NCBI GenBank assembly: GCA_001780285.1
Contig: MFGN01000017.1
Coordinates: 37,687-101,686 of the forward strand
Direction of reading: 5' to 3'
Source: Candidatus Falkowbacteria bacterium RIFOXYD12_FULL_34_57
Lineage (GTDB): Bacteria > Patescibacteriota > Patescibacteriia > Patescibacteriales > UBA12075
Length of the DNA stretch: 64,000 nucleotides
In this document: positions 9,817-62,408 of the stretch, one piece after another
Position numbering within the stretch: position 1 is the first letter of the stretch
Layout of the letters: the number at the start of each line of letters is the position of its first letter
Notes under the pieces: generated by a model
Told to the model about the DNA's origin: nothing
What the model saw: only the letters and a program-made list of their open reading frames with translations
Database searches by the model: none
Translations under genes and position numbers: made by a program

Positions 9817-9873
9817 AATTTTAATATAATACGATCCTAAAAATTAAAATATTAATATAGTAAACTCGCATTT

Positions 9874-40327: not shown

Positions 40328-41371
40328 CTAATAATATACAGCTTTTGTCTCTAAATCACGTTTACGATTACGGGCAATATCTATATCAATCCACCCTTCG
40401 TTAAATAATTTATCTATTGCATCATTCATGGTAATCATCCCCTCTCTTTTACCAGTTTGAATAACCGAATTGATTTGTTCAATCTTACTAAAATGAATCA
40501 AATTTGCAATAGCCCGATTATTAATCATAATTTCTCGCGCACAAACCAGACCTCCTCCCACCCTCGGTAAAAGTTGTTGAGCAACCACAGCCCGGAGAAC
40601 AACTGAAAGTTGGTTGGCAATCTGATGCTGGCTTTGGGGCGGAAAAAAATCAACAATTCTTTCAACAGTTTCTGCTGCTGTGGCGGTATGCAGGGTAGAC
40701 AAAACCAGATGCCCGGTTTTTGCCGCAGTAAGTGCAGCTCCTATAGTTTCCATATCCCGCATCTCCCCAACCATAATAACATTTGGATCTTGGCGTAAAG
40801 CAAATTTTAGAGCATCGGCAAAACTTTTTGTATCCTGCCCAATCTGTCGCTGTTCTACAATGCTTTGCTTATCATTAAAAACATATTCAATCGGATCCTC
40901 AATGGTGATAATATGTGATCTACGTTCATTGTTTATAATATCAATCATGGTGGCAAGAGTTGTGGATTTGCCCGCACCAGATGGTCCGGTTACCAAGATG
41001 AGACCATCTTTCAAGTGTGTTAATTTATACACTATCTCAGTAAAACCAATATCTTCCGGCTTTGGAATTTCGGTAGAAATTAAGCGAGCAGCCAACGCAA
41101 TCTTTCCTCCCTGATAATGCAAATTTACTCTAAACCTAGTATTAAAAAACTCCATAGAAATATCTAAATCTAATTTTCTTTGAAGCCGTTCTTTGTTTGG
41201 CTTTTCCAAAATACCAAAAACAGCATATTTTAATTGTCCATATGGTATGACTGTTTTTTCAATTTTAATCAATTCTCCTGCAATCCGCAAAGCGGGGCAG
41301 CTTCCCTCAACCAAATGAAGATCTGAAGCACCACTTTCTATAGCTTGTTTAAAATAATAAGATAAATCCAT
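40328..41371 (-). CDS. pilT: Type IV pilus retraction ATPase PilT
   Basis: Walker A GPSGAGKST, Asp box, Walker B and His box; PilT-type AIANLI motif; 347 aa. Confidence 0.9.
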   Translation of the reverse strand: MDLSYYFKQAIESGASDLHLVEGSCPALRIAGELIKIEKTVIPYGQLKYAVFGILEKPNKERLQRKLDLDISMEFFNTRFRVNLHYQGGKIALAARLISTEIPKPEDIGFTEIVYKLTHLKDGLILVTGPSGAGKSTTLATMIDIINNERRSHIITIEDPIEYVFNDKQSIVEQRQIGQDTKSFADALKFALRQDPNVIMVGEMRDMETIGAALTAAKTGHLVLSTLHTATAAETVERIVDFFPPQSQHQIANQLSVVLRAVVAQQLLPRVGGGLVCAREIMINNRAIANLIHFSKIEQINSVIQTGKREGMITMNDAIDKLFNEGWIDIDIARNRKRDLETKAVYY

Positions 41372-48376: not shown

Positions 48377-48460
48377 GTCATTTTGAGCGATAGCGAAAAA
48401 TCTCGTTTTAATTTGATATTCACGGGATTCTTCACTGCGCTGCGCTTCATTCAAAATGAT
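48377..48460. repeat. Imperfect-palindrome hairpin repeat, copy 1 (GTCATTTTGAGCGATAGCGAAAAATCTCG ... CGGGATTCTTCACT...TTCAAAATGAT)
   Basis: Left arm 48377-48405 pairs with right arm 48423-48460; about 79% identical to copy at 55580-55652 with pairing-preserving substitutions. Confidence 0.7.
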
Positions 48461-50757: not shown

Positions 50758-53184
50758 CTATCTATCTTCCCACCACCTTGTGGGCAGATTACCACATGGC
50801 AAGGTAACCACCGGAGAAATAAAGGAGTGCAATAACATATCCTGATCGGCAAGTGGAAAACCTTTATAGTCGGGACAATTACCGGCTGCGCAATAAGCTA
50901 CCACTTCATATGTATATGTTAAAACAGCTGACATAATATCGTTATCCGTATAAGTTTCCGGTCCTCCGGGATTTAGATCGTTTACCTGATCAATATGTTC
51001 TTGTATTCCGGAAAAACCGCCGTAAGGGTCATTGGAAATAGTACGATATATATTGTAATAATCTACTTCCGAATCAAGACCATCTACATCCCATGTAAAA
51101 GTAACATAATCACAATTATAATTAGTAATTGGAGCAATCTCTGGGTTGCAGAAATATGTTCTTCTAACCTCTATATTAGACCAAGCGGATGGAATCACAA
51201 ATCCATTAAACGCTCTGACTTGGTATCTATAAGAGTCAATACTTGGGGGCATCAACACTGTCCAGGTGCCAAGTCCCGGAAAAGTCAAGTTACCGCTTGC
51301 AAAGCTAGATGCCGGACTGTTTGGGTCAACCTCCCAGATGGTAGTATCCGGATCTCTTTGTATTTCATATCCGGTTTCATTACTGGATTTATCTTCCCAC
51401 TGCAAATTAACAAGCCACCCTAGAGCATCGCTACAAACCGTAGTAATAGCATTAAGATTTAAGGGGGTGCAAAGAAAGGTCCAATCCTGAGCAATAGCTG
51501 ACCAAGAAGACGGCGAAACTGCTCCAATGGAATTTACAGCTCGAATATCCACATTCCAATTTACTCCGTCAAGTGCATCATTTATCATTAAAGTCTCTAT
51601 ATCCACCTCTATGCCATCAGCTGGAAATATTTCTATACGAGTTCCCCCTGTTGGATTAGTATCTGTAAAACGCACTTCATACCAATCCTCATTTACAGAA
51701 TTATCGTTCCATGTAGCCGTCATATCGTTACAAAGCGGACCATCCGCGGCCGTAATGCCAGTGGGAGTACAAAGCTGGGTATTTACGGGTAACCAAACTG
51801 ATTGTCCTGATTCTCCCACAACAGCGTTATACGCAACAATATACACATTCCAACGAACACCGTCTGGAATACCACTGGTATTAACATTATTTATATTGTT
51901 AACAGCATCATAAAAACCCCCATCATCTCCATTAATCCCTGGATCAAGATCAATAAAATAAACTCTAAACACATCTTCGTTATTATAGATAGAAGGATCT
52001 GTACCTTGGGTTATAATACGATTACAACTAGGAGAAGAAACATTGTTTATACCCGGAACACAAAGAACTGTTGTCACTGGTACACTTCCAGAGGCTGGTG
52101 AAGACGCAGCTCCTTTACGCGTAACAACAGACACTGACCAATTTACTCCATCGGGTACAGAATTACTGACATACACCAATCCGCCCCCACTAACATTTGG
52201 AGCAGTACCTGCAACATTTACAGTAAAATCATCATTTCCATTAGCCACATTATTAAGATCATCAAAAATAATATCATACCCGGATTCATTAACAGAGTTA
52301 TCGGTCCAATTCACGGTTATATTATTACAACCACCGGAGCTTACAACCCCTATTGTTGGGGCGCAAAGAGGGGTGGCTGTGTTTCCAATAGAGGGAATCC
52401 ATCCAGATGCCAAACCATCCTTGTTTACTGATCGCACACTAGCTGTATAAGTTGCCCCATCCATCACAAAAGCATCCGAAATAGACAAACTTGCGGTATT
52501 TGCTGCACTGGTATAAATACCACTATTACCAGCCGGATTTGCTCTGGTTAACTGTATTTCAAAATGATCTTCAATTGGATTTGGCGAAGTGGAATTATCT
52601 GTCCAGGAAACAGTTACTTGTCTGCAATTATTAGTCACAATATTTACATTGCTCGGAGCAGCTGGCGCGCACATTACTGCTGTTGTAAAATTACCGGAAG
52701 CAACAGGGTTGTCACCAAGAGCATCAAATGCTGAAAAACTATAAGCAATAACGGTGTTGGTGGGCACATGCCAGGCATATGGGGCGGTAAAATTTCCCGC
52801 GGAAGCATTGCTAACAAAATTACCGGCGAGTGTTACAGTACCCGACACAAAAGATTTATTATAACAATCACTACAAGTACCAGCTGGCGGCACATTGGTA
52901 TCACACCATGAATTACAATTAGTATTTTCATTGGTGGTGTATGCTGTACTCCAGTTAACACCAGGTGTTGCGTAATCCGCATTATAACACCCCGGTTGAG
53001 GATTGGGGTCTATACATATCGTAATACCCGCCCCAGGATTACCCACATAAGCCGCCACATGATTAATTGGTGGATAAATTAAAACAAAAAACAAAAAACA
53101 AACAAAAAAAACACTAAAAACAACATAAACTTTAGTGTAAATTTTTAATCCCTTTGATTTATTTTTTTTCTTTTTCCAAAACAT
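50758..53184 (-). CDS. Large secreted surface protein with multiple fibronectin type III-like repeats
   Basis: Signal anchor; repeated ...C.P...V.W.DNS.NE.GY.I... modules (VNWTDNSVNESGYDI; ATWNDNSVNEDWYEV; LQWEDKSSNETGYEI), Cys pair per module, Thr/Asn/Gly-rich. Confidence 0.6.
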   Translation of the reverse strand: MFWKKKKNKSKGLKIYTKVYVVFSVFFVCFLFFVLIYPPINHVAAYVGNPGAGITICIDPNPQPGCYNADYATPGVNWSTAYTTNENTNCNSWCDTNVPPAGTCSDCYNKSFVSGTVTLAGNFVSNASAGNFTAPYAWHVPTNTVIAYSFSAFDALGDNPVASGNFTTAVMCAPAAPSNVNIVTNNCRQVTVSWTDNSTSPNPIEDHFEIQLTRANPAGNSGIYTSAANTASLSISDAFVMDGATYTASVRSVNKDGLASGWIPSIGNTATPLCAPTIGVVSSGGCNNITVNWTDNSVNESGYDIIFDDLNNVANGNDDFTVNVAGTAPNVSGGGLVYVSNSVPDGVNWSVSVVTRKGAASSPASGSVPVTTVLCVPGINNVSSPSCNRIITQGTDPSIYNNEDVFRVYFIDLDPGINGDDGGFYDAVNNINNVNTSGIPDGVRWNVYIVAYNAVVGESGQSVWLPVNTQLCTPTGITAADGPLCNDMTATWNDNSVNEDWYEVRFTDTNPTGGTRIEIFPADGIEVDIETLMINDALDGVNWNVDIRAVNSIGAVSPSSWSAIAQDWTFLCTPLNLNAITTVCSDALGWLVNLQWEDKSSNETGYEIQRDPDTTIWEVDPNSPASSFASGNLTFPGLGTWTVLMPPSIDSYRYQVRAFNGFVIPSAWSNIEVRRTYFCNPEIAPITNYNCDYVTFTWDVDGLDSEVDYYNIYRTISNDPYGGFSGIQEHIDQVNDLNPGGPETYTDNDIMSAVLTYTYEVVAYCAAGNCPDYKGFPLADQDMLLHSFISPVVTLPCGNLPTRWWEDR

Positions 53185-53278: not shown

Positions 53279-54466
53279 TTATCTAACAAAATCAAGCACA
53301 ATATTAATAAAAGATTGTTTAAATAGAATAATAGAAATAACTCCGGCAAAAATCCATGGGGCAAGAGGAAATTTTTTATAAATCTCAATAGTTTTCATGC
53401 CGCGCGTCTTAGCCCAACAAATTATAGCACCAACCTGATTTTTACTTATACCACCGGAAATTATGCGGCCATAATCTTTTACAAACTTTTGATCATCGTT
53501 AAGCTGTTTCGTGTTTACACTGTTAATCATCATCCCTGGAAGCAAATTATCAACCTCAATCCTAAAAACCCCGGTTTCGCGCACATAATAATTAAGGAAC
53601 TTTGCAGATAATGACATGACAAGCAAAAAAACAACCATCATTTTAATGGTTATGATTAAGTTATTTAAAGCTGTTCCAAAATTAATAAATAATCCTACTG
53701 CAGTTATAAATAAATTTAATGATACCGCGAGTATTAATAAAAAATTATTATTTTTAAATAATGCTTTTGTAATTTTTCTGGAAAACATAATCATTAAAAC
53801 AAGAAATAAATATTGATATTTGCCAATATCAAGCCCTAAATAACTGTTTATCCAATGCTTAATCCAAAAAAATAACAAAAAAATCGATAACATGCCAATT
53901 GTTTGCACAACCTGTTTCTTAATAGAAAACGATCTTCTCTTTTGTGATTGAAGAAATACTGCGCGTCTATCATTTTTAAATTTTAAAAAAAAACAAAATA
54001 GGGATCTGCATAAAATGAAAACCAAAATTATTACAAAAATATTAACAAGTAATGCAAAAGATGGGAACAGTGGTAAATATGACTTCCAATAATATTTTGT
54101 CGGTAAAAGAAAAGAGAAAACAAAAAACAACTTCACATCTCCTGCCGCCACCACCCCCTCTCTCCATAATAAAAACCCAAAAAGAAGAGATAATGAACTA
54201 TTAAGTCCCAACTTCCACAAAAACCCCTCCTTAATATTTATCATAGCAACAGGATTCAGGTTAAATATTCTTTCCCAAACAAAAGATATTGGCAGTGTTA
54301 ATTCATTCCAAAAAAATAACATGGTATAAATTATAATCCCGTAAACCAAGCCAAAAATAATCCATTTATTCCTTATTTTTCCAGTGCGAATATCTTCAAT
54401 GGAGGCAACAATACCAATTAAAAAAATAATTGGTAAAATAAAAATATCCAAAAAATTAAATTCCAT
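53279..54466 (-). CDS. A24-family (prepilin/preflagellin peptidase)-like polytopic membrane protein with long C-terminal extension
   Basis: First Asp motif ASIEDIRTGKIRNK after TM1 and second Asp motif AAGDVKLFFVF match aspartic peptidase A24 signatures; additional 200 aa of unknown function. Confidence 0.5.
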   Translation of the reverse strand: MEFNFLDIFILPIIFLIGIVASIEDIRTGKIRNKWIIFGLVYGIIIYTMLFFWNELTLPISFVWERIFNLNPVAMINIKEGFLWKLGLNSSLSLLFGFLLWREGVVAAGDVKLFFVFSFLLPTKYYWKSYLPLFPSFALLVNIFVIILVFILCRSLFCFFLKFKNDRRAVFLQSQKRRSFSIKKQVVQTIGMLSIFLLFFWIKHWINSYLGLDIGKYQYLFLVLMIMFSRKITKALFKNNNFLLILAVSLNLFITAVGLFINFGTALNNLIITIKMMVVFLLVMSLSAKFLNYYVRETGVFRIEVDNLLPGMMINSVNTKQLNDDQKFVKDYGRIISGGISKNQVGAIICWAKTRGMKTIEIYKKFPLAPWIFAGVISIILFKQSFINIVLDFVR

Positions 54467-54573: not shown

Positions 54574-55500
54574 TTACAACTCCAACACACTTCTTATTGG
54601 ATGATGCGGGTCGCCTGTTTTTACTATTTTAATATTTTTCTTTACTGATCCCAGTTCTTTTAAACCAATAAATTTTTTATATGTTTTCTGCACACCCATA
54701 CAATATTTTTGATAATTACAATTATTACAAAAATTTGGATAAAAGACCTCATAATCCGGCAAAGTTATCCAGGTGTGCGGCCAAAATTTTTCATGTAAAG
54801 CGCATAATGGGAAATGATAAAGCCTAAATTCTTTAAATCTAACAACACTGTCATAAGCCTGATCTAGATATGGATGCACCTTGTCAAAATCAATCTTAAT
54901 TTTCTCTAAATTTTCTACGGCCTGCGCTTCTGCTTCCCAAAATATCAAAATAACCCGATCAATATCGGGATAACATTTATAAATTTTTTCTAAAAATTGC
55001 GAAATACTTTTATAAGATAGCTTAGTAATCACAAATCTAACACCCACAATCTGACTATTTTTTTTATTCTTCAATAAATTACCAATTCCCTCAAAAGCTT
55101 GTTTAAACCCCCCCCTTATCCCCACAATCCCATCATGAGAAGCTCTATCGTGTCCGTGCAGAGATACATCAATTTCGGTGTTGGGATTTATGTTTAAAAA
55201 ATCTTTAGCAAAGTCTCCATAACAAAACCTACGACCATTCGTCAAAAGCTTAATTGTTTGTTTCTTAAAATTACTTTCTAAATATTTTATAATTTCTAAA
55301 AAATTTGGATGAATAGTGGGCTCCCCGCCAGTAAGATATATAGAATCCCCCGCCAAAAACCTGTCTTTTTCTTTTTCTAATCGACCAATAAGTGAATTAT
55401 AATCATAATCAAAACTCCCATCCCAGGCAGGCCAGGACGGATAGGGGTTGGTGCACATCACGCACCGATTATTGCATTTATCCCAAATACATAAATCCAT
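54574..55500 (-). CDS. Radical SAM enzyme, twitch/SPASM-like auxiliary Cys motif, paralog A of 4
   Basis: CNNRCVMC (CX3CX2C), GGEP, TNGR, SLHGH...HD...GGF, C-terminal CNNCNYQKYC (CX2CX5C). Confidence 0.75.
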   Translation of the reverse strand: MDLCIWDKCNNRCVMCTNPYPSWPAWDGSFDYDYNSLIGRLEKEKDRFLAGDSIYLTGGEPTIHPNFLEIIKYLESNFKKQTIKLLTNGRRFCYGDFAKDFLNINPNTEIDVSLHGHDRASHDGIVGIRGGFKQAFEGIGNLLKNKKNSQIVGVRFVITKLSYKSISQFLEKIYKCYPDIDRVILIFWEAEAQAVENLEKIKIDFDKVHPYLDQAYDSVVRFKEFRLYHFPLCALHEKFWPHTWITLPDYEVFYPNFCNNCNYQKYCMGVQKTYKKFIGLKELGSVKKNIKIVKTGDPHHPIRSVLEL

Positions 55501-55511
55501 ATATATTCAAC

Positions 55512-55564
55512 ATTTCCAGCCATCCAATATTATTAATTTTGGCTGGTCCGCCTTGGGCGGAAAC
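55512..55564. repeat. GC-rich hairpin motif family member: ATTTCCAGCC-N19-GGCTGGTCCGCC-TTG-GGCGGA
   Basis: 12-66 bp upstream of radical SAM paralog A start; collinear with copy at 27568-27625. Confidence 0.55.
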
Positions 55565-55579
55565 ATCTCAACTTTGATT

Positions 55580-55652
55580 GTCATCCTGAGCGAGGTCGAA
55601 GGATCTCGTTTTTCTTCTGTGGCACGGGATTCTTCACTACGTTCAGAATGAC
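55580..55652. repeat. Imperfect-palindrome hairpin repeat, copy 2 (GTCATCCTGAGCGAGGTCGAAGGATCTCG ... CGGGATTCTTCACTACGTTCAGAATGAC)
   Basis: Left arm 55580-55608, right arm 55625-55652, followed by T-run 55656-55665; between the small secreted protein gene and radical SAM paralog A. Confidence 0.7.
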
Positions 55653-55662
55653 AAGTATTTTT

Positions 55663-56124
55663 TTACTTACACATTGGAGAGGTGGTGAATGGTATATCAC
55701 TTGGAGCCCAGTCACTCCATGTTGCGTACTTATTCTGAACCTTTATTCTCCAATAATATAAAACTTCTGATTGTAGTCCCTCTCTGTCTATCTCGTAAAA
55801 CAAATTCTTGGTGCTCACTTCGCCAGAATTAAATTCAGGAGATAAAAAATCATTATTATCATCAATCTGCAAAACAAAAACATATTCATCTTCAAAAATT
55901 TCCTGATTCGCATTACAACTCCACCTAAATTTTGGAGTTGGAAAACCACTCGAGTAACACTCCACTTGATCAACTAAATCATTGGTGCACACACTTAGAT
56001 CATACCTACTATCTTGATTAATAATTTCTTGTTCCCTTGTTTTTTGATTGGAATAAACGAATAAAAAGACAAGGAAACCGAAAAAAATAATTGTAATTAT
56101 TTTTTTGACATTTTTTTTGTTCAT
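55663..56124 (-). CDS. Small secreted/membrane-anchored Cys-containing protein (153 aa)
   Basis: N-terminal signal-anchor, 5 Cys in the extracytoplasmic part, embedded inside the radical SAM operon. Confidence 0.45.
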   Translation of the reverse strand: MNKKNVKKIITIIFFGFLVFLFVYSNQKTREQEIINQDSRYDLSVCTNDLVDQVECYSSGFPTPKFRWSCNANQEIFEDEYVFVLQIDDNNDFLSPEFNSGEVSTKNLFYEIDREGLQSEVLYYWRIKVQNKYATWSDWAPSDIPFTTSPMCK

Positions 56125-56138
56125 ATTGTATTTTTAAA

Positions 56139-57062
56139 TTATTTAACAGGAATTAATTCCTGATCTCCATAATTTTTTACATACTCTTTCCATATCCCCT
56201 CGCATTGATCATAAAGTTTACATCCCTCGCAATGCCCGGTTTTTATTCTTCCGATTTCTTTTCTGGAATTTTCAACATCAAAATTTTTAAAATCCGGGGC
56301 TAAATGCTCTGATTTAAATTTTTTTACCTCGTCTAATTCACTAATTTGACTCAAATAATCCTTAAAATAACACAGGGGGACATATCTAATATGCCAATGT
56401 TCGATTTTATTTATCTTCCCAATATCAAGACACTTTCTTATATACGGCGCTGCCTTAGAAATTTGAGGAACATTTTCATTAAATCTGTTAAACGAAGCGC
56501 CGCAGGAAGGATCTACAAAAATAAATTCACAGTTTCTGATCCCCATCCCAAATATCATTTTTCCAATTTTTTCTATATTTTTATAATTCTGTTTTACGAT
56601 TGTAGTATTAGAGCCGATTCTCTCTAAACCCAAAAGTTTTTTCATATTATCAAAACCCTTAATTAACTGTTCAAAACTTCCTGAGCAATTGGTTAATTTG
56701 TCATGCAAATCACCATTGTGACCATGAATAGAAAAAATAATATCCGTAAGTCCAGCATCAACCACCTTCTTTGCAAAATCCTTATAAGCAAGCATTCGTC
56801 CGTTGGTGGCAATATTAATGGTTTTGAATCCAAGTTTATGCGCAGAATTAATCAGTTTTAAAATATCCGGTCTAATAAAAGTCTCTCCCCCTATAAACTC
56901 TAAGTAGGTTGTTCCTCTCTCTCGGGCGCTTTTCATTTCTAATTTAATTTGCTCCGTAGTTTTATTTAGTAAATTGCGCTTATCCTCATCAATGCAAAAC
57001 ACACACATATTATTACAATCATACCCCGTTATTATTACTGTTTTTTTTATTTTTTTTGTCAT
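56139..57062 (-). CDS. Radical SAM enzyme, paralog B of 4
   Basis: CNNMCVFC, GGETF, TNGRMLAYKDFAKK, SIHGHNGDLHD...GSF, C-terminal CEGCKLYDQCEGIWKEY. Confidence 0.8.
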   Translation of the reverse strand: MTKKIKKTVIITGYDCNNMCVFCIDEDKRNLLNKTTEQIKLEMKSARERGTTYLEFIGGETFIRPDILKLINSAHKLGFKTINIATNGRMLAYKDFAKKVVDAGLTDIIFSIHGHNGDLHDKLTNCSGSFEQLIKGFDNMKKLLGLERIGSNTTIVKQNYKNIEKIGKMIFGMGIRNCEFIFVDPSCGASFNRFNENVPQISKAAPYIRKCLDIGKINKIEHWHIRYVPLCYFKDYLSQISELDEVKKFKSEHLAPDFKNFDVENSRKEIGRIKTGHCEGCKLYDQCEGIWKEYVKNYGDQELIPVK

Positions 57063-57066
57063 TTTT

Positions 57067-58008
57067 TTATTTAACAGATTTTAATTCACTAATTCCATAA
57101 AGATCCGCATATTTTTTCCAAATTCCATAACAAATTTTGTCATATTTACATTTTTCGCATTCTTTTGACTTTATCTTTTTCCCCTTTCTTTCTTCATCTA
57201 AAGACGCTTCAAAATCAGGTCCGATTAAAAGTGTATCTAATTGCCCCATATCATTAATGTATTTTTCACACCCCGGCACCAGGCAGGGAACCATGTTATA
57301 AATAAAACAACTTGCCTTATCTTTTGCGATATCAATACCCTTGCAAATATGCGGTCCGACGTCACTCATGTGTGGAACAATTGCCCTTGGATTATCACAA
57401 GTATTCCCCTCAAGCATCACAAATGTAAAACGAATTTCGTTAATATCAAAATTTTTCATTAAAAATTTAACATGTTCTTCAAGTGTGCTGTAATTCAATT
57501 TAGTTAAAACAATATTAATATTAACCTTTACGCCCAAACTATTTAAGTTTCTTATTCCCTCTGTGGTCTGTTTGAAAGTTCCCGGTGCCCCCATTATTTT
57601 GTCATGAATTTCCTCAATGTAAGAATGTAAAGAAATAACAAAATGGGTAACTCCGCCATTAACCAATCTTTGACAATATTTTTTATAGGCATACACCCTG
57701 CCATTAGATTGAACCTCTATGTGTCTAAGTCCTATTGTTTTAGCATACTTAATTAAAAGAATTAGATCCTTGCGCAAATTCGGTTCACCCCCGGAAAAAG
57801 CTACACCACGAGCATTCATTTTTTTTGCTCGATCTATATCCTTAATTACCTCTTCAAAGGGTTTTACGGCGCAATAATCCCTACTATTAATACTGCGGTC
57901 TATTTGCATGCCCGTTGAACACATAATGCATCGACAATTACATTTAAATATAATCAAACATTCTACTTTTCCAAGACTATCATTTTTAACATTTTTATTT
58001 TTTCCCAT
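57067..58008 (-). CDS. Radical SAM enzyme, paralog C of 4
   Basis: CNCRCIMC, GGEP, SNGRVYAYKKYCQR, HD...GTF, C-terminal CEKCKYDKICYGIWKKY. Start moved to ATG 58008 (MGKNKN, matching the paralog D N-terminus) instead of the track TTG at 58044. Confidence 0.75.
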   Translation of the reverse strand: MGKNKNVKNDSLGKVECLIIFKCNCRCIMCSTGMQIDRSINSRDYCAVKPFEEVIKDIDRAKKMNARGVAFSGGEPNLRKDLILLIKYAKTIGLRHIEVQSNGRVYAYKKYCQRLVNGGVTHFVISLHSYIEEIHDKIMGAPGTFKQTTEGIRNLNSLGVKVNINIVLTKLNYSTLEEHVKFLMKNFDINEIRFTFVMLEGNTCDNPRAIVPHMSDVGPHICKGIDIAKDKASCFIYNMVPCLVPGCEKYINDMGQLDTLLIGPDFEASLDEERKGKKIKSKECEKCKYDKICYGIWKKYADLYGISELKSVK

Positions 58009-58027
58009 ACTTTCAACTTTATAAACC

Positions 58028-58978
58028 TTATAAACTTTTAACAAAATATCTTATTTCATCATCTCCAAATAAATTTAGGTATTCTTTCCAAATTCCGCCA
58101 CACTCTTTATGATACTGACATTGCCTGCAAATATCTATATTTACGCGATAAGTGTCAAAATATTTTCCTTTGTTATTTTTAATAATTCTTTTTGGATCAT
58201 ATCCCACTTGATGGATAGTATCATCACGCATTTTGGTGTTAACAAAAATAATATTTTTTTGACTTTTTATTTCGGGGCTAAATAAACAAAATGGGAAATC
58301 AAAAAAACCAAATTCATTAAATTGATCGCTAATCTCTATTAAACCATTAAGTTTATTATACAAATCTTTCAAGCGAACCACAAGGTGCGAATAATATATT
58401 TTTGCACCACCATCAGGAATAAGATCAAGAAGATACCAATTTTTAACCCCAATAGAAAGGATAAAATTTCCAAAATTAAGTAAATCGCCGTAATTTAAAC
58501 GTGATATTACCGTACTAATATTAACATGAACATTTTTATATCTTTGTACATTCTTTATGCCGGTCAATATTTGCCCAAAAGACCCCGGTGTTCTGGTAAT
58601 GGCATCATGAGTTTCCTTGTTTGGACCAAGCAAAGAAAAAGTAACTTTATTTAGACCGGTATTTATAATTTTTTCACAAAAATCATCATAGGCAAAAAAA
58701 CGACCATTAGTGCTAAGTGATATAGTCTTGTATCCCAGGTCATTTGCTTCTTTAACCAGCTTAATAATATCTGCGCGTATAGTTGGTTCACCTCCGGTAA
58801 ATTCTACTGAATCGCAACCATTTTTAAATCCCCTTTTTAAATCTTTAGTTATATCATTATAGCTTCTGTCTTGATAATCATTCTCACAATCAGCAATAGA
58901 ACAAACTATACAATTATTATTACACCTAAATCCAGTTAAAACCAATAAATTTTTTTTATTATTATTTTTATTGCCCAT
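58028..58978 (-). CDS. Radical SAM enzyme, paralog D of 4
   Basis: CNNNCIVC, GGEP, TNGRFFAYDDFCEK, THD...GSF, C-terminal CRQCQYHKECGGIWKEY. Confidence 0.8.
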   Translation of the reverse strand: MGNKNNNKKNLLVLTGFRCNNNCIVCSIADCENDYQDRSYNDITKDLKRGFKNGCDSVEFTGGEPTIRADIIKLVKEANDLGYKTISLSTNGRFFAYDDFCEKIINTGLNKVTFSLLGPNKETHDAITRTPGSFGQILTGIKNVQRYKNVHVNISTVISRLNYGDLLNFGNFILSIGVKNWYLLDLIPDGGAKIYYSHLVVRLKDLYNKLNGLIEISDQFNEFGFFDFPFCLFSPEIKSQKNIIFVNTKMRDDTIHQVGYDPKRIIKNNKGKYFDTYRVNIDICRQCQYHKECGGIWKEYLNLFGDDEIRYFVKSL

Positions 58979-58987: not shown

Positions 58988-59947
58988 TTAATAGTATTGC
59001 CGATGGCAGCACCCCAAACACTTATCACAAACCCCATTTTTTAATATATTTTTTCTAAAAATCTTTATTTTTTTATTATTCCAAATTATTTTTATTTTTT
59101 CTTTTTTTAAGTTTCCAATCACATTATTACACCCCAAAACCCCTCCTCCGGGTGTTACATCTAGATTTGGCATAATATTCAAACCAAGCCATGGGATATT
59201 ACAATTACGAGAAAAATTATTTAATTCTTTGTTGTAGTATTTTTCTAAATCATTAACTTTTATATATGGTAAAAATAAAATTTTAAACCTCGTCTTTAAA
59301 TTTTTAATTTTAAAAATTTGATCTTTTAAAACATTTATATTAATTTTATCTTTACAAAAATACGCATGTTGAAAAGATAAAACATTTATATTTGCTTTTT
59401 CAAACTCAAAGAAATCTACAATTTTTTTAATCTCTTTATAATTTTTATCCGTTAAAACAAAATTTATATTAATTTTTATCCTTTTTATGTCTTGTACTGT
59501 CTTAATCTTGTAAAAATCTTCTAAACTATTCATGGAAACATTAATCTGTTCAATACTACTACTCCCAATATCTTTATAAAAAATATTAAGCAAATTTCCA
59601 TTTGTTGTAAAAGATAGCTTTACATTATTTAATGTTGCAAATTCCAACATTTTAGAAAAATCTTTATTTATCAAAGGCTCACCACCAAAAAGATGTATCT
59701 TTGGCATAACAAAAAAATTTCTTTTTGCATCAATAACAATTTTTTTAAAATCATCAAAAGACAAATCTTGCGCTAGATATTTTTTGTAATAATCATCACT
59801 CAGCTGATAACAATACCCACAAACATTATCACACCTTAGTGTTATGTGAACCAATAAAAACAAGGGTTGGGGTGACCAATTGCCAAATAATTGAAAAATA
59901 TTAAAAAATTTATTTTTTGTTGCAATGAATTGTTTTATGTTTATCAT
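58988..59947 (-). CDS. Radical SAM / SPASM-domain protein
   Basis: CDNVCGYC core motif, GGEP, TNG, C-terminal Cys-rich CNNVIG...CDKCLGCCH consistent with SPASM-type auxiliary clusters. Confidence 0.7.
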   Translation of the reverse strand: MINIKQFIATKNKFFNIFQLFGNWSPQPLFLLVHITLRCDNVCGYCYQLSDDYYKKYLAQDLSFDDFKKIVIDAKRNFFVMPKIHLFGGEPLINKDFSKMLEFATLNNVKLSFTTNGNLLNIFYKDIGSSSIEQINVSMNSLEDFYKIKTVQDIKRIKININFVLTDKNYKEIKKIVDFFEFEKANINVLSFQHAYFCKDKININVLKDQIFKIKNLKTRFKILFLPYIKVNDLEKYYNKELNNFSRNCNIPWLGLNIMPNLDVTPGGGVLGCNNVIGNLKKEKIKIIWNNKKIKIFRKNILKNGVCDKCLGCCHRQYY

Positions 59948-59973: not shown

Positions 59974-61701
59974 TTAATTTTTTAATTCATATAAAAACAT
60001 ATTACACCTGCCTCCATCGTGCATTTTCTTTTCTATATCCAACAATATATTATAGTCAAAATTCAATCTTACTAAATTATAAAATTCTTCACGGTTAAAT
60101 GTCGTTGTGTTTCTTACACAATCAATAGCTGTTTGTTCAATGTATATATTTGAATACTTTTTTTTAATGTGTGGCATCTGAGATATAAATTCTTTTTCTA
60201 TTTGCTCTATTTTATAATCATCACTAAATCCATAAATAGCTGGGACAATGCTGTATCGACTATTTGCAAGTATTATTGAATTGGGTTTAATTTTATCCAA
60301 AGAAATTAAAGCTTGCTCATACTCCGAATTCCAAAAAAGTGTTCCTTCGTCTACCCCCGGTAAACTATAAGAATAATAAAAAAAATTATTGGCTATAATA
60401 ATTAGCGTTGTTAATAAAACCATAACAGGGATATTCCTTATTCTCCGCAGAAAGAAACCATATAATATTATTAATGGTATAAATAAATATGCCAAATAAT
60501 TAAAGGCGTCTAATCTTTGATCGTAGTGAAATGTGGTGATAACAAAAAAGAAAATTAAAAAATATAAAAAATAAATCCAAGTCCTTTTATTCTTCATTGC
60601 CAATACCGGAATAAAAAGTATTATCCAAAACAGCGGAACATGGGTTTTTAAGAAATAAAAATTATAAAAAAAATTTTTAGATAATATAAGAAAATGGTAT
60701 TTTAATAATCCCATAACATTATTTCCATTGTTTACAATCTGGGTTGCCATTTCTGGATCGGTAAAATTTCCGGCATTATCTGATCCTATAAATGAAGAAC
60801 TGGCGTATAACAAAAAAACTGGAAAAATACAGGGCAATGAAAGCAATAAAAATAAATTTATTTTATTATTAATAAAATCATTTTTAGAATTTCTTGATTC
60901 AAGATAAAATATAACAAAATAAATGAAAAACCATATTTCTGAACCAACTCTTAAAAAAACGGAAAACAATAAAATACCAAAACTCCAAATCAGGGTATTA
61001 ATATCTTTTGTTTTTAAATACAACAACAGGGTAAACAAGCTAAAAACATTAAACACTTCTCCCAATATAGCGTAATCTGGTGCCAAACTGCAAAAATAAT
61101 TATTGTAATAAAATAAAAATACCAACCCACACAAAAATGCTATTATGTTTTTCTTTGTTAATAATTTAATAATAAAATAAACCGCGATAGCCTCAAGCAT
61201 TACAAATACGGTATTAATATTTGCTAAAACCTTAAAATTTATTTGAAAAAAACTGTCCAAAAAATTAAAAAATAAAAAATATGCTTTAGCTTTAAAAATA
61301 CCACCAAAATCAGCTATTAAACCAATGTCTACTGGCTCAGCTATGACGCTTAAAGCGCTCATCCCCTTGTCTAATCTAGAAACAACCGGGATATGTATTA
61401 ATAAAAAAATTCCAGTCACAAGAACTAAAATAAAAAACAACAAAAGAAAATAATCATTATAAATTATTTTTTTAAGATGCTTCGCGTTTAAAAACAAATA
61501 ATAAATAATTATTTCTGGTAAAAAAATAATCAATAAAAAATAGAAGATGGAAAGATATGGAGATATATCAACATATGCCTCGTAAATTTGCAAAGGAAAT
61601 AGAACCACAACAAGAACTTGAACAATAAAAAATAATAAAAAATTATATGGCATTTTTAAAAACCAATATTTTATATCTTTTCCCTTTTCTTTTTTATTCA
61701 T
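59974..61701 (-). CDS. Polytopic membrane protein (about 12 TM) with C-terminal soluble domain; possible GT-C fold glycosyltransferase (ArnT/PMT-like)
   Basis: Topology and size (575 aa), start overlaps the upstream GT2 gene by 8 nt (classic polyprenyl-P-sugar synthase + GT-C pairing); no sequence signature confidently matched. Confidence 0.35.
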   Translation of the reverse strand: MNKKEKGKDIKYWFLKMPYNFLLFFIVQVLVVVLFPLQIYEAYVDISPYLSIFYFLLIIFLPEIIIYYLFLNAKHLKKIIYNDYFLLLFFILVLVTGIFLLIHIPVVSRLDKGMSALSVIAEPVDIGLIADFGGIFKAKAYFLFFNFLDSFFQINFKVLANINTVFVMLEAIAVYFIIKLLTKKNIIAFLCGLVFLFYYNNYFCSLAPDYAILGEVFNVFSLFTLLLYLKTKDINTLIWSFGILLFSVFLRVGSEIWFFIYFVIFYLESRNSKNDFINNKINLFLLLSLPCIFPVFLLYASSSFIGSDNAGNFTDPEMATQIVNNGNNVMGLLKYHFLILSKNFFYNFYFLKTHVPLFWIILFIPVLAMKNKRTWIYFLYFLIFFFVITTFHYDQRLDAFNYLAYLFIPLIILYGFFLRRIRNIPVMVLLTTLIIIANNFFYYSYSLPGVDEGTLFWNSEYEQALISLDKIKPNSIILANSRYSIVPAIYGFSDDYKIEQIEKEFISQMPHIKKKYSNIYIEQTAIDCVRNTTTFNREEFYNLVRLNFDYNILLDIEKKMHDGGRCNMFLYELKN

Positions 61702-62404
61702 ATTTTATTTTTATGTTGTAAAACAATCTTACAATGTCAATTATAGTGCTTGGCACCCTCGCAAGCACTCCGGTGGTACTTTTTCTTTTTTCCTCACAAA
61801 TAACCGGAATTTCCTTAATTCTTAATCCTCCCATTTGAGACCTAAGAATAAATTCTGTATCAAAAAGCTCTCTATCTGTAATACATTTTTTCACTATGTT
61901 TATAATTATATTTTTTCTAAACAACTTTAAACCATGAGTATCCACACCACCGGAATCAAAAAATAATTTTAGAAATAAATTAAAGTTTTTAGTAATAAAA
62001 CGACGCAAAAGTGACCTAGTATCTTCTGATTCAGACATAACCTTAGAACCTAAAACAATATCACTTTCCCCTGATAATAAATAATTGATTGAAGTGATTA
62101 AAAAATCTACATCCCAAAAATCAATATTAAAAATTGCTACATTGTCACCATTGCACCGCAGAATACCATCTTTAATAGCTCTTCCATAATTGGAGGTTTT
62201 TAGACTAATCATTTTAATATTTTGAAAATCTTCTGACAATTCTTTTGCTATATTCTTTGTGTTATCCGTACTTCCATTTTCAACCAAAAAAATTTCATAC
62301 TTTTCAAACTTTCTATTATTCATTTCATTGATTATTGATTTCACTTCGGTTTCCAATATTTCCTCCTCGTTATATATGGGTATTACTATCGACAATAATT
62401 TCAT
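61694..62404 (-). CDS. Glycosyltransferase family 2, polyprenyl-phosphate sugar synthase-like (ArnC/DPM1/GtrB-like)
   Basis: LSIVIPIYNEE...LVENGSTDNT GT-A motifs; 236 aa. Confidence 0.8.
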   Translation of the reverse strand: MKLLSIVIPIYNEEEILETEVKSIINEMNNRKFEKYEIFLVENGSTDNTKNIAKELSEDFQNIKMISLKTSNYGRAIKDGILRCNGDNVAIFNIDFWDVDFLITSINYLLSGESDIVLGSKVMSESEDTRSLLRRFITKNFNLFLKLFFDSGGVDTHGLKLFRKNIIINIVKKCITDRELFDTEFILRSQMGGLRIKEIPVICEEKRKSTTGVLARVPSTIIDIVRLFYNIKIKYE

Positions 62405-62408
62405 AGAA

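What the first reader, a model, noticed from the sequence alone, without database searches (positions are those of the whole stretch)
54574..58978. Four tandem ancient paralogs of one radical SAM family sharing a CX2CX5C-G[IV]WK.Y C-terminal signature
The four proteins are 307-325 aa and only about 30-40% identical to each other, but they share motif order. The order is CX3CX2C about 15-30 aa from the N-terminus, then GGEP, TNGR..(Y/F)AY.DF, S(I/L)HGH....HD....G.F, a conserved upstream Cys, and finally CX2CX5C followed by G(I/V)WK(E/K)Y...(Y/F)G..E. The CX2CX5C spacing is the core of SPASM/twitch auxiliary [4Fe-4S] sites. The array looks like iterative duplication of a substrate-tailoring enzyme, each copy possibly acting at a different position.
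Basis: seen in the sequence. Interest (0 to 1): 0.7.

Follow-up and report, generated by a model that had tools for sequence, protein, structure and literature searches.

The report
Array of HxsC-like radical SAM enzymes
Four neighbouring genes are ancient, still-intact copies of the HxsC type of radical SAM enzyme; such arrays recur, next to a prepilin-peptidase-like protease, across the ultrasmall CPR bacteria and DPANN archaea and probably modify a cell-surface protein.

Summary
Four intact minus-strand ORFs (308, 307, 313/325 and 316 aa) are full-length paralogs. All carry CX3CX2C, one upstream Cys and a C-terminal CX2CX5C-G.(W/Q)..Y…G. Two corrections: identity is 26-30%, not 30-40%, and an Ig-like gene separates R1 from R2.

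The signature is not new. It marks the HxsC family, the radical SAM maturase of the His-Xaa-Ser (HXS) system. R1 matches 444 plasmid records, and 14 of the 15 shown are annotated hxsC. A bona fide HxsC shares every conserved Cys.

New here: each paralog is its own orthogroup (45-73% identity to orthologs, against 22-30% between paralogs). Arrays of 4-9 copies recur in 80 loci of CPR bacteria and DPANN archaea. Copies are sometimes fused into two- to four-module polypeptides. The constant partner is an A24-type protease with both catalytic Asp invariant.

About a third of related loci also encode HxsA4, HxsB and HxsD. This window and its contig encode none of them. They carry Ig/FN3 surface proteins and glycosylation genes instead.

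Best reading: a multi-enzyme array that modifies a surface protein, derived from HXS, with the substrate unknown here. The site is not canonical SPASM: one cluster, four Cys.

Verdict: new variant of a known kind; interest 0.6.

The parts
54574..55500 (-). R1: HxsC-like radical SAM enzyme, 308 aa. It is the copy closest to canonical HxsC and lies directly upstream of the A24-like protease gene.
   Evidence: Pfam Radical_SAM 52 bits. Best NCBIfam hit is HxsC TIGR03977, 163 bits over profile positions 30-289 of 292, below the cutoff of 268. tblastn finds 444 plasmid records; 14 of the 15 shown are annotated hxsC, at 23-27% identity over 86-98% of the query. Motifs: C9/C13/C16, C233, C258/C261/C267. 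Orthologs at 36-55% identity in other loci. In the NJ tree R1 groups with canonical HxsC (bootstrap 59).
55578..55654 (-). Intergenic hairpin between the Ig-like gene and R1 (REP-like inverted repeat).
   Evidence: MFE -29 kcal/mol against -13.7 for shuffles, z = -5.05. The arm motif GTCATCCTGAGCG occurs 3 times in the window against 0.3 expected. No Rfam family matches.
55663..56124 (-). Ig153: a 153-aa protein with an N-terminal membrane anchor and an Ig-like (Rha78A_N-like) domain that starts C-x9-C-Y…TP.F.W. Candidate substrate or partner.
   Evidence: Pfam Ig_Rha78A_N, 27.2 bits against a cutoff of 27.4. It clusters with the 808-aa downstream protein and with genes at the same position in 15 loci.
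56139..57062 (-). R2: HxsC-like radical SAM enzyme, 307 aa.
   Evidence: Pfam Radical_SAM 69 bits. HxsC4 NF038332 141 bits over profile positions 12-335 of 335, cutoff 500. Orthogroup of 44 sequences from 42 loci, 11 of them archaeal, bootstrap 83. Orthologs at 53-69% identity.
57067..58044 (-). R3: HxsC-like radical SAM enzyme. It is 325 aa from the TTG at 58044; more likely 313 aa from the ATG at 58008.
   Evidence: Pfam Radical_SAM 92 bits. HxsC4 120 bits and HxsC 115 bits. Orthogroup of 13 sequences from 13 loci, 4 archaeal, bootstrap 80. Orthologs at 64-73% identity in the closest loci. The public gene call is 313 aa.
58028..58978 (-). R4: HxsC-like radical SAM enzyme, 316 aa.
   Evidence: Pfam Radical_SAM 80 bits. 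HxsC4 152 bits and HxsC 112 bits. 286 homologs at E<=1e-5, and the 120 listed all carry CX2CX5C-GG[IV]W. AF2 model has mean pLDDT 94.8. Orthogroup of 33 sequences from 29 loci, bootstrap 67.
58988..59947 (-). R5: a different radical SAM enzyme with a short SPASM-like C-terminus. It is not a member of the four-copy family but heads the array in related loci.
   Evidence: Pfam Radical_SAM 45 bits plus SPASM 26.4 bits. Only core similarity to R1-R4, 23-30% over 86-165 aa. A 37% ortholog sits at the same position in L001.
53279..54466 (-). A24-like polytopic membrane protein, 395 aa. It is a prepilin-peptidase-type GXGD aspartyl protease with a ~250-aa insertion, and is the most constant partner of the array.
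   Evidence: Pfam Peptidase_A24 23.6 bits, cutoff 26.5. Present in 56 of 80 non-duplicate loci, usually right after the R1-type gene. D25, N33, G109-D110, K112, F114 and P122 are invariant in 55 full-length members, and a P-F-A motif precedes the last TM.
50758..53184 (-). FN808: an 808-aa protein with an N-terminal anchor, the same Ig-like N-domain as Ig153 and repeated Cys-bracketed fibronectin-III modules. It is the last gene of the operon. Candidate substrate or surface product.
   Evidence: Pfam fn3 45 bits. Same cluster as Ig153, cluster HMM 474 bits. Ig-type genes follow the A24-like gene in many loci.
59974..61701 (-). 575-aa polytopic membrane protein related to PMT_2-type (GT-C) glycosyltransferases.
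   Evidence: An HMM built from the PMT_2 proteins of related loci scores 56.7 bits, E = 8e-17. Pfam itself gives no significant hit. A second PMT_2 gene lies upstream on the contig.
61694..62404 (-). GT2 glycosyltransferase, 236 aa, of the polyprenyl-phosphate-sugar-synthase type.
   Evidence: Pfam Glycos_transf_2 77.8 bits. NCBIfam hits to PgfS, ArnC-like and dolichyl-phosphate hexose transferase models, all below cutoff.
62409..63779 (-). B12-binding radical SAM enzyme, 456 aa, HpnJ-like.
   Evidence: Pfam Radical_SAM 102 bits. NCBIfam HpnJ 207 bits, cutoff 578. The PMT_2 + B12-rSAM + GT2 module occurs twice on this contig and recurs in CPR and DPANN loci.

Best explanation
R1-R4 are ancient, non-redundant paralogs of the HxsC branch of radical SAM enzymes. 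A fifth copy lies just upstream of the window.

Each copy has the canonical CX3CX2C site for the SAM-cleaving [4Fe-4S] cluster. Each also has a second site built from one upstream Cys plus CX2CX5C. That second site most likely holds a single auxiliary [4Fe-4S] cluster.

The copies are the catalytic core of a long operon conserved across CPR bacteria and DPANN archaea. This operon is an expanded, HXS-derived system for maturing surface proteins.

Proposed mechanism (inferred): in the cytoplasm, each paralog uses a 5'-deoxyadenosyl radical to modify a different site or residue type of one shared protein substrate. The paralogs probably act as a physical assembly. The adjoining A24-type GXGD protease then trims the substrate's N-terminal leader or anchor at the membrane. 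The PMT_2/GT2/B12-rSAM modules glycosylate the substrate outside the cell.

In many relatives the substrate is a His-Xaa-Ser repeat protein (HxsA4), handled together with HxsB and HxsD. In this genome's operon those three are absent. The target here is therefore probably one of the operon's own anchored Ig/FN3 proteins (Ig153, FN808), or a protein encoded elsewhere in the genome.

Shown: family identity, Cys conservation, ancient orthogroups, recurrence, fusions, partner genes, and invariance of the protease catalytic residues.

Inferred: cluster binding, a protein substrate, division of labour among copies, and the order of steps.
For: Family:
- The best NCBIfam hits are HxsC and HxsC4, covering the full length including the C-terminus.
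- R1 finds 444 plasmid records; 14 of the 15 shown are annotated hxsC.
- Alignment with an Agrobacterium HxsC shares CX3CX2C, GGE, N, HD, G.F, the upstream Cys, PD, CX2CX5C, G, Y and G.
- In E. coli HxsC, C342A/C345A (the equivalent CX2C) lowers HxsA processing and abolishes defence. HxsC also binds HxsD (PMC13128918).

Ancient paralogy:
- Orthologs are 45-73% identical, against 22-30% between paralogs.
- NJ orthogroups have about one member per locus, with bootstraps of 83 (R2), 80 (R3), 67 (R4), 82 (R1 core) and 98 (R0 core).
- The R2, R3 and R1/HxsC groups include archaeal loci.

Recurrence:
- 46 loci longer than 15 kb have a mode of 5 copies and a range of 1-9.
- 3209 representatives at 50% clustering score E<=1e-30.

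Working together:
- 84 of the 144 top representatives are in-frame fusions of 2-4 modules.
- One fusion was verified on DNA as an uninterrupted 1070-aa ORF.

Protein-maturation context:
- The A24-like gene is present in 56 of 80 loci and its catalytic Asp residues are invariant.
- HxsA4 (101 and 72 bits, cutoff 55), HxsB (476 and 416 bits, cutoff 370), HxsD (55.7 bits, cutoff 50) and HxsD_rel (69.5 bits, cutoff 41) lie in the same clusters as R1, R2 and R4 orthologs.
- A DPANN operon reads HxsC-like, HxsB, A24-like, HxsD, HxsD_rel, HxsA4.
- HxsA4 proteins share a leader plus hydrophobic helix that is conserved between bacteria and archaea.
Against: - No HxS-repeat gene, HxsA-type leader, HxsB or HxsD was found in the 64-kb window, in the rest of its contig, or in the closest related loci. 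The defining substrate of the homologous system is therefore missing here.
- All scores are far below the curated HxsC and HxsC4 cutoffs.
- The ~95-130-residue N-terminal domain of canonical HxsC is absent.
- The operon is rich in sugar-handling genes.
- The closest solved structures by sequence or fold act on nucleotides, nucleoside sugars or lipids: BlsE, viperin and GDGT-MAS.
- Ig153 and FN808 have ordinary signal-anchor N-termini with no conserved leader.
- In six loci canonical type IV pilin genes follow the A24-like gene, and in others pilM/N/O/B-like genes do. The protease may therefore serve pili rather than the rSAM substrate.
- Fe-S binding and Cys convergence were not measured.
Confidence: 0.55

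Rival explanations
1. Glycan or lipid-linked-sugar tailoring. The HxsC-like enzymes act on nucleotide sugars or polyprenyl-phosphate sugars made by the GT2 enzymes of the operon. The reactions could be epimerisation, dehydration, decarboxylation or C-C bond formation. The PMT_2-type transferases then attach the unusual sugars to surface proteins such as FN808.
For: - The operon holds UDP-GlcNAc 2-epimerase, an NAD-dependent epimerase/dehydratase, two GT2, two PMT_2-like genes, an Asn-synthase-like amidotransferase and two HpnJ-like B12-rSAMs.
- PMT_2 and GT2 recur in 19 and 18 loci.
- No HxsA, HxsB or HxsD is present in this operon.
Against: - Similarity to BlsE and viperin covers only the generic rSAM core (residues 11-185; TMq <= 0.63). 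PADLOC pVip hits stop at profile position ~180 of 260.
- The full-length relatives are HxsC enzymes, which genetics ties to a protein substrate.
- Orthologs of R1, R2 and R4 sit in clusters that have HxsA4, HxsB and HxsD and often lack any glycosyl genes.
- The B12-rSAMs can account for sugar chemistry without involving the HxsC-like copies.
Confidence: 0.2
2. A regular HXS system whose substrate genes lie elsewhere. The genome encodes HxsA4, HxsB and HxsD at another locus. R1-R4 mature that His-Xaa-Ser repeat protein, possibly for phage defence as in E. coli.
For: - R1, R2 and R4 orthologs lie beside HxsA4, HxsB and HxsD in about a third of loci.
- In L038 the HxsD genes lie downstream of the Ig gene, so their position is variable.
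- Public gene calls miss HxsA genes, so the genes are easily overlooked.
- The contig ends 1.4 kb upstream of the operon's first rSAM.
Against: - None of the closest loci shows HxS repeats, an HxsA-type leader or HxsD within +/-10 kb. These loci are L001, L008-L012 and L021, some on contigs of 279-789 kb.
- Canonical HXS loci sit in mobile defence islands with a single HxsC. This operon is syntenic across lineages and flanked by housekeeping genes.
Confidence: 0.15
3. A RiPP-type cluster that makes a small, diffusible, heavily modified peptide from an unannotated short precursor gene.
For: - The operon has many rSAM maturase-like genes, including a PapB/SCIFF-like rSAM/SPASM (P0121).
- Small conserved ORFs of 65-81 aa sit between rSAM genes in related loci.
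Against: - Those small ORF families are absent from the window and its contig.
- They look like folded small proteins rather than leader-core peptides.
- No credible short ORF lies in the intergenic gaps of the array.
- No transporter or leader-peptidase pair typical of RiPP clusters was seen in the window genes scanned. The protease present is of the prepilin-peptidase type.
Confidence: 0.05

Closest known systems
HxsC, the radical SAM maturase of the His-Xaa-Ser (HXS) system (NCBIfam TIGR03977). HxsABCD was shown in 2026 to block phage DNA entry in E. coli (PMC13128918).
   Same: - Full-length homology over the rSAM core and the C-terminal domain.
- The same conserved residues: CX3CX2C, GGE, N, HD, G.F, an upstream Cys, PD, and CX2CX5C-G…Y…G.
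- Orthologs of R1, R2 and R4 elsewhere sit with HxsA4, HxsB and HxsD.
   Different: - Scores are below the curated cutoff (163 bits at best, against 268).
- The ~95-130-residue N-terminal domain is missing.
- There are 4-9 paralogs per locus instead of one, and they are sometimes fused.
- A dedicated A24-type protease is present.
- Hosts are CPR and DPANN, whereas the published survey found 99.7% of systems in Pseudomonadota.
- The operon is syntenic with housekeeping flanks, not part of a defence island.
- This operon lacks HxsA, HxsB and HxsD.
NCBIfam 'rare' HXS variant models: HxsC4 (NF038332), HxsA4 (NF038313) and HxsD_rel (NF038315).
   Same: - R2, R3 and R4 hit HxsC4 best, and R2 and R4 match it end to end.
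- HxsA4 and HxsD_rel pass their cutoffs in related CPR loci (L005, L019). In the DPANN locus L049, HxsA4 passes (72 bits against 55) and HxsD_rel falls just short (38.8 against 41).
   Different: - No protein examined reaches the HxsC4 cutoff of 500 bits. The best is 181 bits.
- No paper in the searchable library describes this variant, the arrays or the protease link.
SPASM/twitch radical SAM enzymes: anSME, SkfB, SuiB, CteB, BtrN and MoaA.
   Same: - An rSAM core followed by a Cys-bearing C-terminal extension.
- CX2CX5C spacing identical to the SPASM core motif.
   Different: - There are only four conserved Cys (1 + 3), no CX3C continuation and no downstream Cys.
- Pfam SPASM does not match.
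- Trp replaces the SPASM Cys that ligates the first auxiliary cluster.
- No solved structure covers the C-terminal domain well (TMq <= 0.63).
BlsE (cytosylglucuronate decarboxylase, PDB 7VOB).
   Different: The match stops at residue ~185. The NCBIfam BlsE model matches R1-R4 only over their first ~160-185 residues (22-87 bits, cutoff 400). BlsE has a different substrate class.
Prepilin/preflagellin peptidases (Pfam Peptidase_A24: PilD, FlaK, PibD), for the partner gene.
   Same: The two catalytic Asp motifs (D…N and GD-x-KLF) and the C-terminal P-F-A motif are invariant. Canonical pilin genes follow the gene in six loci.
   Different: It scores below the Pfam cutoff (23.6 bits against 26.5). 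It has a ~250-residue insertion with extra TM segments. It is embedded in rSAM/HXS operons, including in archaea.

Membership tests
Radical SAM superfamily (PF04055) | CX3CX2C cluster motif near the N-terminus and a score above the Pfam gathering cutoff. | tested here: met
   R1-R4 score 52.1, 68.7, 91.9 and 80.5 bits against a cutoff of 29.5. CX3CX2C starts at residues 9, 16, 35 and 19.
HxsC (TIGR03977) | Full-length similarity including the C-terminal Cys motif (upstream Cys + CX2CX5C). | tested here: met
   R1 covers profile positions 30-289 of 292. tblastn matches annotated hxsC genes over 86-98% of R1. In alignment A3 with an Agrobacterium HxsC, all seven Cys and a further 14 columns are invariant.
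HxsC (TIGR03977) | Score at or above the curated equivalog cutoff of 267.9 bits. | tested here: not met
   R1 163.3, R2 71.3, R3 114.7 and R4 112.3 bits.
HxsC (TIGR03977) | N-terminal extension of about 95-130 residues before the rSAM motif. | tested here: not met
   The first Cys of CX3CX2C lies at residue 96 or 130 in two canonical HxsC. It lies at a median of residue 16 (5-95% range 9-40) in 267 CPR/DPANN members and at residues 9-35 in R1-R4.
HXS system (HxsA/B/C/D) | Co-location with a His-Xaa-Ser repeat protein, HxsB and HxsD. | tested here: not met
   The window, L007 and L086 have no (H.S) repeats, no HxsD or HxsA cluster-HMM hit and no HxsA4-leader hit. The upstream rSAM/SPASM P0121 scores only 72 bits on HxsB, cutoff 370. 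The feature is met for orthologs in other loci: 24 loci have HxS repeats and 23 have HxsD.
HxsC4 (NF038332) | Score at or above the curated cutoff of 500 bits. | tested here: not met
   R2 141.2, R3 120.4, R4 152.2 and R1 65.8 bits. The best seen anywhere is 180.9 bits.
SPASM domain (PF13186) | Seven- or eight-Cys pattern with CX2CX5CX3C and a downstream Cys, binding two auxiliary clusters; Pfam match. | tested here: not met
   No SPASM hit at E<=0.01 for R1-R4, whereas R5 hits at 26.4 bits. None of 268 members has CX2CX5CX3C, and 243 of 267 have no Cys after the motif. hhalign against a SPASM family aligns only 18 columns, P = 0.0018, probability 15%.
Twitch-type rSAM (a single auxiliary cluster in an abridged SPASM) | One auxiliary [4Fe-4S] cluster ligated by 3-4 Cys of a C-terminal beta-hairpin/helix extension. 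| tested here: inconclusive
   Four Cys are conserved: C231 in 98% of 267 members, with C284, C287 and C293. In alignment A2 these four are invariant in 79 sequences. The AF2 model (pLDDT 88-97 in this region) places strands 243-275 between C231 and the CX2CX5C helices. The tool returned no coordinates, so Cys-Cys distances were not measured. The NCBIfam twitch model matches only the core of R1.
Auxiliary Fe-S cluster binding (any type) | Extra Fe/S content and a spectroscopic signature that is lost on Cys mutation. | not testable with these tools
   The only evidence is by analogy. The E. coli HxsC C342A/C345A double mutant has reduced processing and loses defence (PMC13128918).
Prokaryotic viperin (pVip) | Full-length match including the nucleotide-binding C-terminal extension. 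| tested here: not met
Peptidase A24 (partner gene 53279-54466) | Two catalytic Asp in conserved TM motifs (D…, GXGD-type). | tested here: met
   D25 and G109-D110 are 100% conserved in 55 full-length members, as are N33, K112 and F114. The Pfam score of 23.6 bits is below the 26.5 cutoff.

The most novel reading that the evidence does not exclude
CPR bacteria and DPANN archaea share a vertically conserved machine for building a cell-surface polymer. Up to nine HxsC-type radical SAM enzymes, sometimes fused into one polypeptide, successively rewrite a surface protein: a His/Ser-repeat protein or an Ig/FN3 protein. A dedicated prepilin-peptidase-like protease then cleaves it, and it is O-glycosylated with radical-modified sugars. 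The product would be a new class of heavily radical-modified surface fibre or coat. It would be central to the episymbiotic lifestyle (attachment) or to keeping foreign DNA out. The proteobacterial four-gene HXS defence system would then be a reduced, mobilised offshoot of this older machine.
Probability: 0.25. Interest if true: 0.85.

Novelty: new variant of a known kind. Interest (0 to 1): 0.6.

Why it matters
The HXS system received its first experimental function only in 2026, as a four-gene phage-entry block. Its published survey found it almost only in Pseudomonadota.

This window shows that the HxsC enzyme type has a second, much larger life. It forms arrays of 4-9 anciently diverged copies that are conserved as orthogroups across two radiations of ultrasmall, host-dependent microbes from different domains. 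The arrays come with their own membrane protease and glycosylation modules.

This gives three leads:
- A candidate for the unknown protease step of HxsA maturation.
- Natural multi-module fusions that indicate the enzymes act together.
- A set of clean paralog families for working out what chemistry HxsC-type enzymes perform.

For CPR and DPANN biology, it marks a large, conserved and unstudied investment in radical chemistry on the cell envelope.

Tried and rejected
- **Recent or decaying duplicates.** Rejected. All ORFs are intact, all motifs are kept, and each copy has its own orthologs at 45-73% identity.
- **Canonical SPASM domain.** Rejected.
- **Viperin-like defence enzyme.** Rejected. 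Only the core matches.
- **MoaA, AhbD, NirJ, PqqE or BlsE identity.** Rejected. All scores are far below cutoffs and cover the core only.
- **HxsA, HxsD, HxsB or the HxsA4 leader hidden in the window, contig or closest loci.** Searched by regex on six-frame translations and by cluster HMMs; nothing found. Walking upstream reached the contig end.
- **Small conserved ORF families of relatives.** The 'c72' family (YIITYRS.EHFEV.GWV) and the 70-aa 'FL.T.T.F…ELETFLF.N.FPYEEI' family are absent here.
- **Short ORFs in the array's intergenic gaps.** None is credible.
- **Rfam on the whole window.** No hit.
- **Literature.** No paper found on HxsC4 or HxsA4, on CPR/DPANN rSAM arrays, or on an rSAM-A24 link.
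- **Prepilin peptidase as a general HXS neighbour in Proteobacteria.** Seen once, in Agrobacterium. Not seen in three other loci, so treated as coincidence.
- **AFDB fold search.** The library was not available.
- **First bootstrap run of the NJ tree.** Invalid because saturated distances produced NaN values. It was redone with a cap.
- **Cys-Cys distances in the AF2 model.** Could not be measured because no coordinates are returned.

Full report
**Source and observation**

The window comes from Candidatus Falkowbacteria bacterium RIFOXYB2_FULL_34_18, a CPR/Patescibacteria genome. R4 is 100% identical to the NCBI protein A2331_01685.

- R1, 54574-55500, 308 aa.
- R2, 56139-57062, 307 aa.
- R3, 57067-58044, 325 aa from TTG. 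A public gene call starts at the ATG at 58008, giving 313 aa.
- R4, 58028-58978, 316 aa.

All four pass Pfam Radical_SAM. They align with each other end to end at 26-30% identity, with E-values of 1e-19 to 6e-45. All carry CX3CX2C, GGE, (T/S)NGR, HD, G.F, one upstream Cys and a C-terminal CX2CX5C followed by G.(W/Q)..Y…G.

It needs small corrections:
- A 153-aa Ig-like gene and a hairpin-bearing spacer interrupt the array between R2 and R1.
- R1 departs from the G[IV]WK.Y consensus.
- A fifth member lies upstream of the window (L007:4171-5070).
- The neighbouring rSAM, R5 (58988-59947), belongs to a different, SPASM-bearing family.

**What the family is**

The signature belongs to an already curated family. 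The best NCBIfam models are HxsC (TIGR03977; R1 scores 163 bits over profile positions 30-289 of 292) and 'rare' HxsC4 (NF038332; R2 and R4 match end to end at 141 and 152 bits). All scores are well below the curated cutoffs of 268 and 500 bits.

R1 used as a tblastn query finds 444 plasmid records. Of the 15 shown, 14 are annotated hxsC, at 23-27% identity over 86-98% of R1.

An alignment with a bona fide Agrobacterium HxsC keeps every conserved Cys. It also keeps GGE, N, HD, G.F, PD and the G, Y and G that follow the last Cys.

Canonical HxsC has an extra 95-130-residue N-terminal domain. R1-R4 lack it, and so do the CPR/DPANN relatives. In those relatives the first Cys lies at a median of residue 16, against residue 96 or 130 in two canonical HxsC.

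In E. coli, HxsB and HxsC are required for maturation of the His-Xaa-Ser repeat effector HxsA. HxsC binds HxsD. Mutating HxsC C342/C345, the counterpart of the CX2C seen here, lowers processing and abolishes defence (PMC13128918).

**The C-terminal Cys site**

Four Cys are conserved: C231 in 98% of 267 members, together with the CX2CX5C trio. In alignment A2 they are invariant in 79 sequences.

No member has the SPASM continuation CX3C, and 243 of 267 have no Cys after the motif. Pfam SPASM does not match R1-R4 but does match R5.

A profile-profile comparison of the C-terminal domain with a SPASM family aligns only 18 columns around the motif (P = 0.0018, probability 15%). Trp stands where SPASM has its next Cys.

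A single, fully Cys-ligated auxiliary [4Fe-4S] site of the twitch kind is the most likely reading. The geometry could not be checked because no coordinates are returned.

**Ancient paralogy**

In a Portnoybacteria locus (L001) each window copy has its own ortholog: R4 60%, R3 64%, R1 48% and R2 65% identity. Identity between paralogs is 22-30%. The same holds across 80 non-duplicate sources (79 loci plus the window).

I built a neighbour-joining tree of 268 members with 100 bootstraps. It recovers orthogroups with about one member per locus:

| Orthogroup | Sequences / loci | Archaeal loci | Bootstrap |
|---|---|---|---|
| R2 | 44 / 42 | 11 | 83 |
| R3 | 13 / 13 | 4 | 80 |
| R4 | 33 / 29 | 0 | 67 |
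| R0 core | 14 / 14 | 1 | 98 |
| R1 core | 16 / 16 | 0 | 82 |

R1 groups with canonical HxsC, but the bootstrap is only 59.

I looked for positions conserved within orthogroups but different between them. The only ones found are R4 residues 226-228, immediately before the Cys ligand C231.

**Recurrence and fusions**

A scan of one genome per species returned 78 loci. They come from CPR/Patescibacteria and from DPANN archaea: Aenigmatarchaeota, Woesearchaeota, Iainarchaeota, Nanohaloarchaeota and Pacearchaeota.

With my own ORF calls and a family HMM, loci longer than 15 kb hold 1-9 copies with a mode of 5. Of 334 members, 304 keep CX2CX5C.

A profile search of 1.84 billion cluster representatives gives 3209 at E<=1e-30. 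Among the 144 new top hits, 84 are in-frame fusions of two to four complete modules. One was checked on DNA: L091:8001-11213 is an uninterrupted ORF of 1070 aa with three modules. The next gene in that locus fuses a module to a DUF483-like domain. These fusions argue that the paralogs work together physically.

**Context in this genome**

The contig ends 1.4 kb upstream of the operon's first rSAM. In transcription order the operon reads:
1. UDP-GlcNAc 2-epimerase
2. rSAM/SPASM, 372 aa (PapB/SCIFF-like, not HxsB)
3. rSAM, 329 aa
4. Asn-synthase-like protein
5. R0
6. PMT_2
7. B12-rSAM
8. GT2
9. NAD-dependent epimerase/dehydratase
10. B12-rSAM
11. GT2
12. PMT-like protein
13. R5
14. R4
15. R3
16. 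R2
17. Ig153
18. R1
19. A24-like protein
20. FN808

Ribosomal protein L9 and CTP synthase follow.

The A24-like protein is the most constant partner. It is present in 56 of 80 non-duplicate loci and usually lies right after the R1-type gene. D25, N33, G109-D110, K112 and F114 are invariant in 55 members. It is therefore very likely an active prepilin-peptidase-type protease, despite a sub-threshold Pfam score and a ~250-residue insertion.

**Link to HXS**

In 24 loci my ORF calls reveal His-Xaa-Ser repeat proteins. Public gene callers had replaced some of these with opposite-strand ORFs.

NCBIfam confirms the identities in the same clusters as R1, R2 and R4 orthologs:
- HxsA4: 101 and 72 bits (cutoff 55).
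- HxsB: 476 and 416 bits (cutoff 370).
- HxsD: 55.7 bits (cutoff 50).
- HxsD_rel: 69.5 bits (cutoff 41).

A Nanohaloarchaeota operon (L049) reads HxsC-like, HxsB, A24-like, HxsD-like, HxsD_rel, HxsA4.

The HxsA4 proteins share a leader, …IP.IKK.I..FL.SEEG.ISKK…, followed by a hydrophobic helix. This leader is conserved between bacteria and archaea. It is a plausible recognition and cleavage region for the maturases and the protease. That would match the unexplained N-terminal processing of E. coli HxsA.

In contrast, no HxS repeat, HxsA-type leader, HxsD or HxsB was found in three places:
- the window;
- the rest of its contig;
- the closest loci (L001, L008-L012, L021).

These loci instead carry R5, an R3 ortholog, Ig/FN3 proteins and PMT_2/GT2/B12-rSAM modules.

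**Interpretation**

The best-supported explanation is that R1-R4 (with R0) are a multi-enzyme array of HxsC-type maturases. Each has an rSAM cluster and one auxiliary cluster, and each has a distinct, anciently fixed role. They would act on a common protein destined for the cell surface. The A24-like enzyme would be the processing protease, and the GT modules would glycosylate the product.

The substrate in this genome is unknown. Ig153 and FN808 are the candidates encoded in the operon.

The rivals are:
- Sugar or lipid-linked-glycan tailoring. The operon's sugar genes and the BlsE and viperin resemblance favour it. Against it, that resemblance is limited to the core, and the full-length kinship is with HxsC.
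- A regular HXS system with the substrate genes elsewhere in the genome.
- A small-peptide RiPP.

In some loci the A24-like gene is followed by canonical type IV pilins or by pilM/N/O/B-like genes. It may therefore also, or instead, serve pili.

**Comparison, novelty and verdict**

The published HXS survey reports four-gene systems, 99.7% of them in Pseudomonadota, with a single HxsC. Proteobacterial loci that I inspected sit among mobile and defence genes.

NCBIfam models for HxsA4, HxsC4 and HxsD_rel show that a curator has seen a variant. I found no paper describing the paralog arrays, their orthogroups, the fusions, the A24 link, the CPR/DPANN distribution or the HxsA-less form.

I therefore class the finding as a new variant of a known kind, with interest 0.6. 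It is not a member of HxsC in the curated sense: the cutoff, the N-terminal domain and the system context are all not met. It most likely works like HxsC.

Noticed in passing
window 55578-55654 (also 48377-48389): A strong intergenic hairpin lies between the Ig-like gene and R1 (MFE -29 kcal/mol, z = -5). It is built from the inverted motif GTCATCCTGAGCG, which occurs 3 times in the window against 0.3 expected. It looks like a REP-type element, and its translation gives the spurious '…SEVEGS…LRSE' type of ORF. No Rfam family matches.
   Followed up: partly
L003 9216-9935 (+) versus the public call 9376-9894 (-); the same in L004: The public gene call misses the His-Xaa-Ser repeat gene and annotates an opposite-strand ORF instead. 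HxsA-type genes may therefore be under-reported in CPR/DPANN annotations.
   Followed up: partly
window 53279-54466 versus L007 19458-20501: The public gene call for the A24-like protein starts 48 codons too late (347 aa instead of 395 aa). This removes the first TM helix and the invariant catalytic Asp25.
   Followed up: yes
L091 8001-11213 and 11185-13029; P0215-P0358: Natural fusion proteins exist with 2-4 complete HxsC-like modules, making up 84 of the 144 top representatives. Other fusions join a module to a DUF483-like domain, or to SPASM-type and B12-type rSAM modules (P0236, 1406 aa).
   Followed up: partly
L086 6771-10618 and window 59974-63779: The module PMT_2-like + B12-binding rSAM (HpnJ-like) + GT2 occurs twice in this operon. 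It recurs next to the arrays in both CPR and DPANN loci. It resembles the HpnI/HpnJ logic: a glycosyl transfer followed by radical chemistry on the sugar.
   Followed up: no
L029 17440-18945, L033, L036, L037, L039, L041; L009 8362-11944; L011 17458-20918: In several loci the A24-like gene and the Ig genes are followed by canonical type IV pilin genes (KGFTLIE…), or by genes whose N-termini look like pilM, pilN, pilO and pilB. The window itself has a T2SSE/PilT-like ATPase at 40328-41371.
   Followed up: partly
L049 13525-14205: The HxsD-like protein of a Nanohaloarchaeota operon is 226 aa. It carries a C-terminal stretch with a weak 4Fe-4S ferredoxin match (FdxA_fam 26.9 bits, cutoff 65).
   Followed up: no
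L020 17002-17223, L013 12756-12968 and 11 other loci; L011 6066-6275 and 6 other loci: Two small conserved protein families sit inside the arrays of relatives. One, 'YI.TYRS.EHFEV.GWV…' (65-73 aa), lies just before the R1-type gene. The other, '…FL.T.T.F…ELETFLF.N.FPYEEI…' (~70 aa), lies between rSAM genes. Both are absent from the window, and their function is unknown.
   Followed up: partly
L087 7079-8813: A 745-aa annotated prepilin peptidase lies two genes from the hxsBCA genes on an Agrobacterium pAt plasmid. It is not seen in three other proteobacterial HXS loci, so this is probably coincidence.
   Followed up: partly
L008, L014, L030, L031, L034 (record titles): Some MAG records that carry these CPR-type clusters are titled Gammaproteobacteria, Pseudomonadales or Planctomycetia. 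Their gene content and the 40-66% identity of their R4 orthologs suggest the taxonomic labels are unreliable.
   Followed up: no
window 50758-53184: Each fibronectin-III module of the 808-aa surface protein starts with a Cys-x(10-13)-Cys bracket. The N-terminal Ig-like domain of this protein and of Ig153 starts C-x(8-9)-C-Y…TP. These could be disulfides or sites of another cross-link.
   Followed up: no
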